Virus record (IMG/VR): IMGVR_UViG_3300024269_000017
Strand: one strand, 5' to 3'
DNA: 64,000 bases
Source: a virus
Taxonomy: Duplodnaviria > Heunggongvirae > Uroviricota > Caudoviricetes
The notes under the pieces: model-generated
Database searches by the model: none
The model's input: only the letters and a program-made list of their open reading frames with translations
What the model was told of the DNA's origin: nothing
Made by a program: the position numbers and the translations under genes
In this document: in pieces, positions 24,441 to 24,984 of the stretch
Numbering within the stretch: position 1 is the first letter of the stretch
How the letters are laid out: each line of letters starts with the position of its first letter

Positions 24441-24984
24441 GCCCCGTTAGCTCAGTCGGTAGAGCATGCGGCTGTTTACCTGACCTCACTTACTCTTTAT
24501 GAAAATAAACATGAATAGTAAACAGTTAGGAAACATTACTGAACTTGAAACGATGTTGGCATTTCTTAAACTTGGTTATAATGTTCTTACTCCATATGGA
24601 GATTGTGAGCGTTATGACTTCGTGGTAGATATTGGCAATAAGTTTATAAGAGTTCAAAGTAAAACATCTCACTCAACAGATGATGGAGCATCATTCTCAT
24701 TTAGTGGTAGAAGTTGTAATCGCAAAGATGGGAAAATTGTACACCATCAATACACAGCGGATGAAATTGATTACTTCGCAACAACTTTTAATGGAACGAC
24801 CTATTTGGTTCCAGTAGAAGAGTGCGGAGCGGATAAAAGACTCCGTATTCTTCCAGCCAAAAACGGTCAAACCCGAGGAATTACTTGGGCGAAAGATTAT
24901 GAATTGGAGGAAGTAGTAAAGAGTTGGTGAGCTGATGTGTAAGCAACCGCAGTGTCGTAGGTTCGAGTCCTACACGGGGCGCCA
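24441..24984 (+). tRNA. tRNA (Asn-GTT or Asp-GTC) interrupted in the anticodon loop by about 473-nt ORF-containing insertion
   Basis: 5' half GCCCCGT-TA-GCTC-AGTCGGTA-GAGC-A-TGCGG. 3' half CCGCA-GTGTC-GTAGG-TTCGAGT-CCTAC-ACGGGGC-G-CCA. The halves are perfectly complementary. Confidence 0.6.
24499..24930 (+). CDS. insertion-encoded PD-(D/E)xK (Hjc / I-Ssp6803I / EndA-fold-like) protein
   Basis: 143 aa. YDFVVDIGNKFIRVQSK has the D...(E/Q)xK core. Paralog of 34579..35022. Confidence 0.55.
   Translation: MKINMNSKQLGNITELETMLAFLKLGYNVLTPYGDCERYDFVVDIGNKFIRVQSKTSHSTDDGASFSFSGRSCNRKDGKIVHHQYTADEIDYFATTFNGTTYLVPVEECGADKRLRILPAKNGQTRGITWAKDYELEEVVKSW

What the first reader, a model, noticed from the sequence alone, without database searches (positions are those of the whole stretch)
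24441..24984. tRNA gene split by a 473-nt insertion that encodes an Hjc/EndA-fold PD-(D/E)xK protein and is too small to be a group I intron
The two tRNA halves are perfectly complementary (acceptor, D-arm, TGCGG/CCGCA anticodon stem, T-arm, G-CCA). The insertion sits in the anticodon loop, compatible with CUGUU|..|AA (Asn-GTT, break 36/37) or CUGU|..|CAA (Asp). ORF 24499..24930 fills it except for about 20 nt on each side, so a self-splicing ribozyme core cannot fit. The protein (YDFVVDIGNKFIRVQSK) has the restriction-endonuclease-like fold core shared by Hjc, I-Ssp6803I (a tRNA-intron homing endonuclease) and the tRNA-splicing endonuclease catalytic domain. With the phage's RNA ligase, Pnk kinase and phosphatases, this suggests protein-catalysed tRNA splicing in a phage, or a novel homing element that relies on that repair machinery.
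Basis: partly seen in the sequence, partly recalled or inferred. Interest (0 to 1): 0.85.

Follow-up and report, generated by a model that had tools for sequence, protein, structure and literature searches.

The report
Ribozyme-less homing-endonuclease intron in phage tRNA
A phage tRNA-Asn gene is split by a small mobile element that carries only a homing-endonuclease gene and a conserved RNA stem, with no self-splicing ribozyme; this matters because bacteria and their viruses are not known to remove tRNA introns with proteins.

Summary
The ORF is an I-Ssp6803I-family PD-(D/E)XK homing endonuclease (Pfam PF11645, PDB 2OST), not an EndA relative.

No group I ribozyme is present. Only 22 + 14 nt are non-coding, Rfam finds nothing, the intron ends in C rather than G, and synonymous sites vary along the whole ORF. 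A true 218-nt group I intron in the neighbouring tRNA-Leu is detected as a positive control.

The element belongs to a large family that I did not find described. The window holds a second copy in tRNA-Thr(UGU). I examined 62 distinct relatives in phage contigs, covering at least 11 anticodons, and one cultured phage (Enterococcus phage EFP01).

All sit at 36/37, and in nearly all of them the last three intron nucleotides pair with the anticodon. In the families I aligned or inspected, the intron ends also pair with each other into a covarying RNA rod with the ORF looped out.

Homing is recent: presence/absence polymorphisms exist, and 99%-identical introns sit in 70%-identical exons.

How, or whether, the intron leaves the pre-tRNA is unresolved. 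My estimates are protein-dependent excision plus ligation about 0.5, never spliced about 0.33, new small ribozyme about 0.1, and group I about 0.02.

The parts
24441..24476 (+). 5' exon of tRNA-Asn(GUU), nt 1-36 (acceptor, D arm, anticodon stem 5' strand, C32 U33 G34 U35 U36)
   Evidence: ARAGORN intron mode. The junction is fixed by 21 intronless phage tRNA-Asn genes with the same anticodon arm.
24477..24944 (+). Intron-like insertion of 468 nt. It starts UACCUGACC and ends GUGUAAGC. No ribozyme core is present.
   Evidence: No Rfam group I match at E<10. No synonymous-site constraint inside the ORF.
24945..24984 (+). 3' exon of tRNA-Asn, nt 37-76 (A37 A38, anticodon stem 3' strand, variable loop, T arm, acceptor 3' strand, G73, CCA)
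24499..24930 (+). Homing-endonuclease gene, I-Ssp6803I / PDDEXK_5 family (143 aa). The probable real start is the ATG at 24511 (139 aa).
   Evidence: Pfam PF11645, 105 bits against a cut-off of 26. PDB 2OST, E 1.7e-7. AlphaFold model against 2OST, TM 0.71. E11, D36, Q49 and K51 are invariant. 808 homologues were found.
24473..24479 (+). 5' strand of the anticodon/intron helix: U33, anticodon G34 U35 U36, and the first three intron nt (U A C)
   Evidence: RNAalifold consensus and pair counts. The helix is also in the MFE and centroid folds of the whole 544-nt precursor.
24939..24945 (+). 3' strand of the same helix: G U A pair with intron nt 3-1, A G C pair with U36 U35 G34 (U35.G wobble), and A37 pairs with U33
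   Evidence: The terminal triplet is complementary to the anticodon in at least 11 tRNA families.
24480..24485 (+). 5' side of the internal loop (CUGACC). The YUGAC motif is conserved in the Asn, Lys and some Gln introns.
   Evidence: Alignment A1. The tandem G.A reading is my inference.
24931..24938 (+). 3' side of the internal loop (CUGAUGUG). The YUGAUG motif is conserved in the Asn and Lys introns.
   Evidence: Alignment A1.
24486..24496 (+). 5' strand of helix II (UCACU.ACUCU), ending two nt before the first ATG
   Evidence: 9 of 10 pairs show compensatory changes.
24920..24930 (+). 3' strand of helix II. It lies in the last codons and the TGA stop of the ORF.
34518..35068 (+). Second element of the same kind. 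tRNA-Thr(UGU) has exons 34518-34553 and 35029-35068, a 475-nt intron at 34554-35028, and a PDDEXK_5 ORF at 34579-35022 that is 41% identical to the first. The last three intron nt (AUA) pair with UGU.
47685..49127 (+). RNA ligase (PF09414 plus an OB fold). It is a candidate enzyme for sealing the nick, and this role is hypothetical.
   Evidence: The best phage match is annotated as RNA ligase.
52267..52851 (+). AAA_33 P-loop kinase (polynucleotide-kinase type). It is a candidate end-healing enzyme, and this role is hypothetical.
53043..53648 (+). Metallophosphoesterase. Two more lie at 45192-46001 and 50903-51748. They are candidate end-healing enzymes, and this role is hypothetical.

Best explanation
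**What it is (shown).** This is a mobile intron-like element made of a homing-endonuclease gene of the I-Ssp6803I family and about 36-50 nt of structured RNA. It is inserted precisely between nt 36 and 37 of a phage tRNA-Asn gene and has no ribozyme.

- It spreads by homing. The endonuclease presumably cuts intronless tRNA genes at the anticodon, and repair copies the element in.
- In the precursor RNA, the last three intron nucleotides pair with the anticodon.
- The next nucleotides pair with the first intron nucleotides, and a second helix joins the region just upstream of the start codon to the last codons.
- The result is that the anticodon stem extends into a long rod with the ORF as its terminal loop.

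**How it is removed (inferred).** I infer that the rod exists so that proteins can cut the intron out of the pre-tRNA. There would be one cut after U36 and one before A37. On the rod these two cuts lie three base pairs apart, symmetrically around the 35:(-2) pair.

- The tRNA body would then hold the two halves together as a nicked anticodon loop, which an RNA ligase seals. This is the substrate type that phage RNA-repair enzymes handle, and the window encodes such enzymes.
- The cutting enzyme is unknown.
- The element works in phages of different hosts and always keeps an intact ORF, so the endonuclease itself is the leading candidate.
For: **Identity of the ORF.** Pfam PF11645, PDB 2OST by sequence and by structure model. 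The D...QxK motif is invariant.

**No ribozyme.**
- Rfam finds nothing at E<10. The same library finds the 218-nt group I intron in tRNA-Leu at 26368-26572 at 47 bits.
- Four-fold degenerate sites vary all along the ORF.
- The intron ends in C.

**Common architecture.**
- Insertion is at 36/37, and the terminal triplet is complementary to the anticodon (G.U allowed): Asn, Thr-UGU, Thr-AGU, Lys, Gln, Ile, Ala, Asp, Pro and a CUA suppressor. Ser-GGA pairs at only 2 of 3 positions, and one Ile-GAU locus, L034, has a mismatch at the middle position.
- On the 18-sequence Asn/Lys alignment, 93.8% of the rod's pair positions are base-paired, against 74% in shuffles (0 of 500 reach the observed value) and 38-48% in slid controls.
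- 18 of 22 pairs show double changes.
- G.U outnumbers A.C by 47 to 6, so the pairing is at the RNA level on the sense strand.
- The precursor fold keeps the cloverleaf plus the anticodon/intron helix, z = -7.

**Selection on the ORF.** All 62 distinct introns keep an intact ORF. This includes the 22 that were found by a DNA pattern independent of the ORF.

**Low apparent cost.**
- One 147-kb phage carries four such introns within 7 kb.
- In the window, the interrupted genes are the only sources of tRNA-Asn and tRNA-Thr(UGU).

**Repair genes in the window.** RNA ligase, kinase and phosphoesterases.

**Analogy from established knowledge.** Archaeal introns that carry homing-endonuclease genes also pair their ends with exon sequence, loop the ORF out, and are removed by proteins. 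In archaeal pre-tRNAs the anticodon pairs with the intron (PMC4090602).
Against: - No protein-dependent tRNA splicing is known in bacteria or phages (PMC4090602).
- The junctions do not form a bulge-helix-bulge, and no EndA-like protein was seen.
- Exon integrity is not evidence for splicing. Introns 98.5-99% identical sit in exons only about 70% identical, so the exons are refreshed by recent homing.
- Two lineages have C33 in place of the near-universal U33. One of them also has stem mismatches.
- EFP01 is the only one of 31 Schiekvirus genomes with the intron. It has no homologue of the window's ligase type.
- No ORF-less derivatives were found. Such derivatives would be expected if a general trans-acting machinery existed.
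- A PD-(D/E)XK homing endonuclease that cuts double-stranded RNA is unprecedented.
- The match between the 3-bp stagger and the enzyme's DNA cleavage pattern rests on my unverified recollection that I-Ssp6803I leaves 3-nt 3' overhangs.
Confidence: 0.5

Rival explanations
1. The element is never spliced. It is a purely selfish homing-endonuclease cassette that has lost, or never had, a ribozyme, and it inactivates a dispensable phage tRNA gene.

In this reading the rod serves the element, not the tRNA. It lets the two tRNA halves fold so that RNase P and the 3' processing enzymes release a stable tRNA-framed mRNA, much like a tRNA scaffold. It also controls translation by pairing the region just upstream of the start codon with the end of the ORF.
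For: - The cassette is highly mobile, which alone explains the intact exons.
- Helix II abuts the start codon.
- C33 variants and a lineage with decayed stems exist.
- Only 1 of 31 cultured Schiekvirus genomes carries it.
- Three of 20 larger loci have a second, intact tRNA-Asn nearby.
- No new biochemistry is needed.
Against: - It gives no strong reason why the last three intron nucleotides should be re-tuned to the anticodon in at least 11 different tRNA species.
- It does not explain why pairing should run exactly up to both junctions.
- Phages carry up to four such insertions.
- In the window, the interrupted genes are the only Asn and Thr-UGU tRNAs of an otherwise complete set.
- No pseudogenised cassettes were seen among 62.
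- True ribozyme-bearing tRNA introns coexist in the same arrays, so the ribozyme-less form is not simply the only option available.
Confidence: 0.33
2. The roughly 50 nt of paired intron ends form a new small catalytic RNA. It would cleave itself at both junctions, and a cellular or phage ligase, or the reverse reaction, would join the exons.
For: - The YUGAC / YUGAUG internal loop is conserved next to the junction helix in the Asn, Lys and some Gln introns.
- The structure shows strong covariation.
Against: - The loop motif is absent from the Thr, Ile, Ala and Asp families, which share only the rod shape.
- There is no match to any Rfam self-cleaving ribozyme.
- Both junctions lie in or at the edge of regular helix, which is unfavourable for in-line attack.
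- No ORF-less copies were found. A self-sufficient ribozyme should allow them.
Confidence: 0.1
3. A cryptic group I ribozyme overlaps the ORF and the intron self-splices.
For: - The endonuclease family was first found in a group I intron of a cyanobacterial tRNA-fMet gene (PMC13011429).
- In the Asn, Thr, Lys and Ile families the 5' exon ends in U.
Against: - Rfam finds no match at E<10, while a 218-nt group I intron 1.4 kb away is found.
- The intron's last base is C, not G.
- In other families nt 36 is G, C or A.
- Synonymous sites are free along the whole ORF.
- All known tRNA group I introns that carry endonuclease genes exceed 500 bp (PMC13011429).
- The anticodon pairs with the intron's 3' end rather than with a guide sequence near its 5' end.
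Confidence: 0.02

Closest known systems
I-Ssp6803I and the group I intron of the cyanobacterial tRNA-fMet gene
   Same: The endonuclease belongs to the same family (PF11645; 2OST is the best sequence and structure match). The target is the same kind, a tRNA anticodon stem-loop. The insertion lies in the anticodon loop.
   Different: [quoted passage not shown] The element here has no ribozyme, is 462-492 nt long (687-764 nt when the ORF is longer), sits at 36/37, and pairs its 3' end with the anticodon.
Archaeal bulge-helix-bulge introns, including rRNA and tRNA introns that carry LAGLIDADG homing-endonuclease genes
   Same: The intron ends pair with exon sequence. The anticodon pairs with the intron. 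The ORF is looped out of a stem. There is no ribozyme, and removal, if it occurs, must be by proteins.
   Different: There are no two 3-nt bulges around a 4-bp helix, and the position is 36/37 rather than 37/38 (definition in PMC4090602). The endonuclease family differs. The host is a bacterial virus, where no EndA-type splicing enzyme is known.
The 'enigmatic' tRNA introns of Lak megaphages
   Same: They are phage tRNA genes with insertions that are not classifiable by Rfam (PMC6784885).
   Different: The Lak introns are short and have no reported endonuclease gene, and no structure rule was described for them. They may correspond to the second, short intron family that I noticed in these loci rather than to this element.
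Free-standing homing-endonuclease genes of phages (for example T4 segB in the tRNA cluster, and mobE splitting nrdA in phage Aeh1; recalled from memory)
   Same: Both are endonuclease-only mobile cassettes without a ribozyme or intein. Jug phages are reported to carry 80 'stand-alone' PDDEXK_5 genes (PMC12880540).
   Different: Free-standing genes sit between genes, or split a protein gene into two translated pieces. This cassette sits inside an RNA gene, is flanked by a conserved exon-intron RNA structure, and has a precise, scar-free junction.
T4 Pnkp/Rnl1 repair of anticodon-loop breaks
   Same: The window encodes the same enzyme classes: ligase, kinase and phosphoesterase. A nick at 36/37 in an otherwise folded tRNA is the same kind of substrate.
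   Different: The T4 system repairs damage made by host anticodon nucleases. A role in removing an intron has never been shown and is not shown here.

Membership tests
I-Ssp6803I / PDDEXK_5 homing endonucleases | Sequence match to Pfam PF11645 above the curated cut-off | tested here: met
   105 bits against a cut-off of 26.1, E 4e-30, covering profile positions 1-137 of 138. The second ORF scores 109 bits.
I-Ssp6803I / PDDEXK_5 homing endonucleases | Restriction-endonuclease-like fold closest to the solved I-Ssp6803I structure | tested here: met
   phmmer against 2OST gives E 1.7e-7. The AlphaFold model (pLDDT 84) matches 2OST with TM 0.71 and E 3e-8. Hjc follows at E 5e-3 or weaker.
I-Ssp6803I / PDDEXK_5 homing endonucleases | Conserved catalytic motif (acidic residue ... 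Q/E-x-K) | tested here: met
   E11, D36, Q49 and K51 (numbering from MNSKQ) are invariant in both alignments. They align with YD...VQVK of 2OST.
I-Ssp6803I / PDDEXK_5 homing endonucleases | Site-specific cleavage of the intronless tRNA gene, followed by homing | not testable with these tools
   The evidence is indirect only. Precise presence/absence polymorphisms exist. Near-identical introns occur in divergent exons.
Group I self-splicing intron | Conserved catalytic core (P3-P9) detectable by covariance model | tested here: not met
   There is no RF00028 match at E<10 in 23300-26000. The positive control at 26368-26572 scores 47.4 bits, E 4e-11.
Group I self-splicing intron | Terminal G at the 3' end of the intron, and U at the end of the 5' exon | tested here: not met
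   The intron ends in C in all Asn copies. Other families end in A, C or G according to the anticodon. Nt 36 is G, C or A in the Gln, Ala, Asp, Pro and suppressor families.
Group I self-splicing intron | At least about 180 nt of RNA under structural constraint | tested here: not met
   Only 36 nt are non-coding. Four-fold degenerate codons have entropy of 1.0-1.9 bits throughout the ORF.
Archaeal/eukaryal protein-spliced tRNA intron (bulge-helix-bulge) | A 4-bp helix flanked by two 3-nt bulges that hold the splice sites | tested here: not met
   The covariation-supported pairing puts the 5' site inside a helix and the 3' site at the edge of a 2x2 loop. No alternative register gives a bulge-helix-bulge (my inspection; definition from PMC4090602).
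Archaeal/eukaryal protein-spliced tRNA intron (bulge-helix-bulge) | Canonical position 37/38 | tested here: not met
   All copies are at 36/37.
Archaeal/eukaryal protein-spliced tRNA intron (bulge-helix-bulge) | Anticodon base-paired with the intron | tested here: met
   In most families all three anticodon nucleotides pair with the last three intron nucleotides, and the triplet follows the anticodon across at least 11 anticodons. Ser-GGA and one Ile-GAU locus (L034) each have one mismatch.
Archaeal/eukaryal protein-spliced tRNA intron (bulge-helix-bulge) | An EndA-type splicing endonuclease is available | tested here: inconclusive
   The intron ORF is not EndA-like. None of about 50 window proteins scanned matched tRNA_int_endo. 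The whole phage and host genomes were not searched.
RNase III-excised intervening sequence (as in 23S rRNA) | A long stem formed by the ends of the insert, cut with a 2-nt 3' stagger | tested here: inconclusive
   The stem is present. A correct 7-nt anticodon loop needs cuts three base pairs apart, whereas a 2-nt stagger would leave an 8-nt loop (my inference). The enzymology is not testable here.
Free-standing (intronless) homing-endonuclease gene | Located between genes, with no conserved RNA structure linking it to the flanks | tested here: not met
   The gene lies inside the anticodon loop and has a covarying exon-intron rod.

The most novel reading that the evidence does not exclude
The homing endonuclease doubles as the splicing endonuclease. 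The rod would present the anticodon region as a double-stranded RNA copy of the left half and centre of the enzyme's DNA target. The dimeric nuclease would cut both RNA strands at the positions equivalent to its DNA cuts: after nt 36, and opposite 33/34. This leaves 3'-OH and 5'-phosphate ends that a phage RNA ligase seals.

If true, this would be the first protein-only tRNA splicing pathway in a bacterial system, and it would be carried by the intron itself.
Probability: 0.2. Interest if true: 0.95.

Novelty: new variant of a known kind. Interest (0 to 1): 0.8.

Why it matters
Textbooks divide tRNA introns into two kinds: self-splicing ribozymes in bacteria and organelles, and protein-spliced introns in archaea and eukaryotes. 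This element has the endonuclease family of a bacterial group I intron. It has the general layout of an archaeal protein-spliced intron (paired ends, anticodon pairing, looped-out ORF). It has the defining motif of neither.

**How common it is.** I found 808 homologues of the endonuclease, and every close relative whose locus I examined sat in a tRNA anticodon loop. The element occurs in many large gut, rumen and soil phages, with up to four copies per phage. It hides tRNA genes from standard annotation. Here it hides the only tRNA-Asn and the only tRNA-Thr(UGU) of the array.

**If it is spliced.** It would reveal an unknown RNA-cutting activity in bacteria or phages, and a natural function for phage RNA-repair ligases.

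**If it is not spliced.** It would be a clear case of a homing endonuclease persisting by drive alone inside RNA genes, with an RNA structure that serves only the parasite.

A cultured pair of phages makes the question directly testable: EFP01 carries the intron, and about 29 sister Schiekvirus genomes lack it.

Tried and rejected
**Searches that found nothing**
- Rfam at gathering and at E<10 thresholds gave no intron or ribozyme family in either endonuclease-bearing intron.
- I looked for ORF-less or decayed copies in three ways. A metagenome scan used the 3' junction motif. A viral-contig scan used the 5' junction, and its one extra hit was a chance match. A covariance model of the rod, with the ORF replaced by a tetraloop, was run over the window and 99 loci. 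None was found.
- The genome-collection scan was meant to find the element in essential chromosomal tRNA genes. Close relatives lie on 80-180-kb contigs in MAG bins, probably phage. The acidobacterial chromosomal homologues are not in tRNAs.
- Four literature searches found no description of this element.

**Readings I considered and dropped**
- Bulge-helix-bulge: no register fits.
- The conserved CUGAC/CUGAUG loop as a hammerhead: there is no GAAA and no NUH site.
- The same loop as a box C/D-type kink-turn: the loop is 1x2, not 3x0.
- The same loop as a -35 promoter box: CTGAC predominates over TTGAC.
- Terminal inverted repeats at the DNA level: rejected because G.U outnumbers A.C by 47 to 6.
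- RNA mimicry of the right half of the DNA target: intron nt 1-3 do not resemble nt 37-39 in any family.

**Tests that gave no usable answer**
- Co-occurrence of the window-type RNA ligase with intron-bearing contigs was uninformative. Only one contig was shared, because the search reaches close relatives only.
- The EFP01 and CCS1 annotations are almost all 'hypothetical'. A Pfam scan of EFP01 candidates found phosphoesterases but no ligase.
- I could not verify the cleavage stagger of I-Ssp6803I. The primary papers are not held.
- Exon integrity and exon covariation cannot serve as evidence for splicing, because homing keeps replacing the exons.
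Full report
**1.

The window is a phage-like region with a tRNA array between about 18.5 and 37.3 kb. ARAGORN finds 33 ordinary tRNAs covering 19 amino acids, and only Asn is missing. With introns allowed, it finds a tRNA at 24441-24984 with a 468-nt insertion.

- The 5' half is 24441-24476, ending C32 U33 G34 U35 U36.
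- The 3' half is 24945-24984, starting A37 A38.
- Joined, the halves give a 76-nt tRNA with 21 Watson-Crick stem pairs and an encoded CCA.

ARAGORN reads the gene as Asp(GUC) by shifting the junction one base. A scan of viral contigs for the same anticodon arm with a free base at position 36 returned 21 uninterrupted tRNAs. All 21 have T, giving CTGTTAA. The gene is therefore tRNA-Asn(GUU). The only junction that yields it is U36|A37, so the insert is 24477-24944 (468 nt, not 473).

**2. The ORF**

ORF 24499-24930 matches Pfam PF11645 (PDDEXK_5) at 105 bits against a cut-off of 26. It matches the solved I-Ssp6803I structure 2OST by sequence (E 1.7e-7).

An AlphaFold model (pLDDT 84) has 2OST as its only strong structural match (TM 0.71). 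Hjc follows weakly, and the tRNA-splicing endonuclease EndA does not appear.

E11, D36, Q49 and K51 are invariant across the family. The protein is a homing endonuclease of the family first found in the cyanobacterial tRNA-fMet group I intron.

**3. There is no ribozyme**

- Only 22 nt lie upstream of the ORF (34 nt if translation starts at 24511) and 14 nt downstream.
- Rfam finds no intron or ribozyme family at E<10.
- As a positive control, the same library finds a real 218-nt group I intron in the tRNA-Leu(UAA) gene at 26343-26648 (47.4 bits, E 4e-11).
- The intron ends in C, whereas group I introns end in G.
- In a codon alignment of 34 distinct relatives, four-fold degenerate codons stay variable along the whole ORF, with entropy of 1.0-1.9 bits. 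No hidden RNA core overlaps the coding sequence.
- Bacterial tRNA group I introns that carry endonuclease genes are all longer than 500 bp (PMC13011429).

**4. It is one member of a large family**

- The window holds a second copy. tRNA-Thr(UGU) at 34518-35068 has a 475-nt insert and an ORF at 34579-35022 that is 41% identical to the first.
- The protein has 808 homologues in the large protein collection, most of the best 120 at 75-93% identity.
- Every close relative whose locus I fetched sits in a tRNA anticodon loop, with an insert of 462-492 nt, or 687-764 nt when the ORF is longer.
- In-silico splicing at 36/37 gives a tRNA that ARAGORN accepts, with the expected anticodon, in 45 of 45 distinct cases.
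- The families cover Asn-GUU, Thr-UGU, Thr-AGU, Lys-UUU, Gln-UUG, Ile-GAU, Ser-GGA, Ala-UGC, Asp-GUC, Pro-UGG and a CUA suppressor.
- The hosts suggested by MAG bins are mainly Firmicutes.
- One copy is in a cultured phage, Enterococcus phage EFP01, where it is annotated only as a hypothetical protein.

**5. A conserved RNA rod**

With few exceptions, the last three intron nucleotides are complementary to the anticodon, with G.U allowed:

| Anticodon | Last three intron nt |
|---|---|
| GUU | AGC |
| UGU | AUA or ACA |
| UUU | AAA |
| UUG | CAA |
| GAU | AUC |
| UGC | GCA or GUA |
| GUC | GGC |
| AGU | AUU |
| UGG | CUG |
| CUA | UAG |

Ser-GGA pairs at only 2 of 3 positions, and one Ile-GAU locus (L034) ends in AGC, which leaves a mismatch at the middle position.

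- The next intron nucleotides, counting inward from the 3' end, pair with the first intron nucleotides.
- After an internal loop, a second helix joins the bases just upstream of the start codon to the last codons of the ORF.
- RNAalifold on 18 Asn/Lys examples recovers this structure, with compensatory changes in 18 of 22 pairs.
- Pair counting gives 93.8% paired, against 74% in shuffles (0 of 500 reach it) and 38-48% when the partner is slid.
- G.U pairs outnumber A.C by 47 to 6, so the pairing acts in the sense-strand RNA and not as DNA inverted repeats.
- The 544-nt precursor folds with the cloverleaf and the anticodon/intron helix in both the MFE and centroid structures, z = -7.
- The internal-loop motif (YUGAC opposite YUGAUG) is conserved only in the Asn, Lys and some Gln families. 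The Thr, Ile, Ala and Asp families share the shape but not the sequence.

**6. It is mobile, and recently so**

- A contig 98.7% identical to the window carries a 687-nt PDDEXK_5+NUMOD1 insertion exactly after nt 36 of the tRNA-Ser(GGA) gene. That gene is uninterrupted in the window at 26120-26212.
- Among 31 Schiekvirus genomes only EFP01 has the intron. Removing it reproduces the sister phage's tRNA-Asn and flanks at 113 of 113 nt, with no duplication or deletion.
- Introns 98.5-99.1% identical sit in tRNA-Asn genes only about 70% identical.
- Two phages share the outer arms of the tRNA but differ in the anticodon stem, which suggests that the stem is co-converted with the intron.
- One 147-kb gut phage has four such introns within 7 kb, while its sister has one.
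- Intact exons are therefore explained by repeated homing, and I do not count them as evidence for splicing.

**7. How it might work**

What is shown: this is an endonuclease-only mobile insertion at a fixed position, with a selected exon-intron RNA structure and no ribozyme. What is not shown: whether the RNA is ever removed.

*Protein-dependent excision and ligation (about 0.5).* I favour this for five reasons.
- The terminal triplet has been re-tuned to each new anticodon, and pairing runs exactly to both junctions. Defining splice sites would require this. Merely stabilising an mRNA would require it only weakly.
- All 62 distinct introns keep an intact ORF, allowing GTG/TTG starts and two in-frame TAGs in one copy. 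This includes the 22 found without reference to the ORF.
- Phages tolerate several copies.
- In the window the interrupted genes are the only Asn and Thr-UGU tRNAs.
- The layout parallels archaeal endonuclease-bearing introns, which proteins remove (PMC4090602).

On the rod, the two required cuts lie three base pairs apart, symmetric around the 35:(-2) pair, and would leave 3-nt 3' overhangs. A homodimeric nuclease produces that geometry. By my unverified recollection it is also the geometry of I-Ssp6803I on DNA. After the cuts, the tRNA body would hold a nicked anticodon loop, and the window encodes an RNA ligase, a Pnk-type kinase and three phosphoesterases.

*Points against.*
- No such pathway is known in bacteria.
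- There is no bulge-helix-bulge and no EndA.
- Two lineages have C33.
- EFP01 lacks the window's ligase type.
- No ORF-less copies exist. This last point would fit if the ORF protein itself is needed for splicing.

*Main rival: never spliced (about 0.33).* The cassette is purely selfish and kills a dispensable tRNA. The rod then gives a tRNA-framed, correctly processed and stable mRNA and gates translation.

*Other rivals.* A new small ribozyme (about 0.1) is disfavoured because there is no shared core. A cryptic group I intron (about 0.02) is close to excluded.

**8. Comparison with known systems**

The element belongs to the I-Ssp6803I protein family, and all testable membership features are met. 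It is not a group I intron, because the core, the terminal G and the size all fail. It is not a bulge-helix-bulge intron, because the motif and the position fail and only the anticodon pairing is shared.

It resembles free-standing endonuclease genes in lacking a splicing element. It differs from them by lying inside an RNA gene with a conserved junction structure.

Lak phage tRNA introns were called enigmatic (PMC6784885). Jug phages were reported to carry 80 stand-alone PDDEXK_5 genes (PMC12880540). Neither paper describes this architecture, and four literature searches found no other description.

**9. Verdict**

- Its 'too small for group I' inference is supported by independent tests.
- Its EndA link is not supported.
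- Its splicing hypothesis remains open, and it is now sharply testable with a cultured pair of phages, one with the intron and one without.
- I rate the element a new variant of a known kind (an endonuclease-bearing tRNA intron), with interest 0.8.

Noticed in passing
window 26343-26648 (intron about 26378-26595): tRNA-Leu(UAA) carries a genuine small group I intron (218 nt) at the classical 34/35 position. Rfam RF00028 scores 47.4 bits, just under the gathering score of 50, so it was missed in the default scan. In relatives (L001, L018) the same intron is 740-830 nt long and carries an ORF.
   Followed up: partly
window 18549-18677, 18681-18799, 19093-19210: Three tandem tRNA-like genes pass the Rfam tRNA model but have 44-60-nt insertions in the anticodon arm. 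For the middle one (18681-18799), which I checked, no simple excision gives a normal 7-nt loop with U33. They may be tRNA-like RNAs with a long arm rather than intron-containing tRNAs.
   Followed up: partly
L034 2382-2530, L018 1989-2925, window 18681-18799; also L003 2557-2705 and L066 1157-1305: A second, different family of tRNA insertions exists. A 74-nt insert in tRNA-Val(CAC) at 33/34 shares both ends (UUGUUUG... and ...GAGUGCAAUUCUCAUGUCAAGCAC) with an 862-nt ORF-bearing insert in another phage. It shares the UGCAAUU / GUCAAGC motifs with the window's tRNA-like gene. Separately, a conserved 72-nt insert occurs in tRNA-Arg and tRNA-Lys of two other phages. All are far too small for group I.
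   Followed up: no
window 39491-45192: A gene block encodes a DUF2828/DUF7788 protein, an 823-aa protein with major-vault-protein shoulder and repeat domains, and an RlaP nucleotidyltransferase. Phosphoesterases, an HNH endonuclease, the RNA ligase and a Pnk-type kinase follow (45192-53648). Together they look like a large RNA-repair or RNP module next to the tRNA array.
   Followed up: partly
L001 1671-2450 versus window 26120-26212: A contig 98.7% identical to the window has a 687-nt insertion in tRNA-Ser(GGA) at 36/37, where the window is uninterrupted. The insertion encodes a 204-aa PDDEXK_5+NUMOD1 protein. Its terminal triplet pairs with only two of the three anticodon bases.
   Followed up: yes
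L090 (human gut contig, 147 kb), within about 7 kb: Four tRNA genes (Asn, Asp, Pro-UGG, Ala-UGC) each carry a 465-478-nt endonuclease intron. In the stretch of the sister contig L104 that I fetched, only the Asn intron is present.
   Followed up: partly
L014, L086 and L003-L005: These intron-bearing tRNA-Asn genes have C33 instead of U33. In L003/L004 there are also mismatches in the T and anticodon stems. The endonuclease ORF is intact in the lineages I checked (L003-L005 and L014). This may mark lineages in which the tRNA no longer functions.
   Followed up: partly
L026 1428-1974; window 30275-30365: One endonuclease ORF has two in-frame TAG codons at conserved positions and no other defect. 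The window encodes a tRNA with anticodon CUA. This suggests TAG recoding in some of these phages.
   Followed up: no
window, 26 sites, for example 18502-18512, 23889-23899, 30225-30235, 33210-33220: The extended -10-like motif TTTGATATAAT (one mismatch allowed) occurs 26 times against 3.3 expected. All but three occurrences are on the + strand, and several lie just upstream of tRNA blocks. It is probably this phage's promoter family.
   Followed up: partly
window 23482-24440: A 960-nt stretch upstream of the split tRNA has no ORF of 70 aa or more (the longest is about 50 aa). GC is about 50% and the folding z-score is -2.7. Apart from a weak chance-level tRNA-Sec hit (E 5.6) at its 5' end, it has no Rfam match. 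Similar long non-coding spacers separate other tRNAs of the array.
   Followed up: partly
KY549443 (EFP01) 97903-102653: The large terminase gene of EFP01 is annotated in four pieces separated by other ORFs. This phage therefore carries several other intervening elements as well.
   Followed up: no
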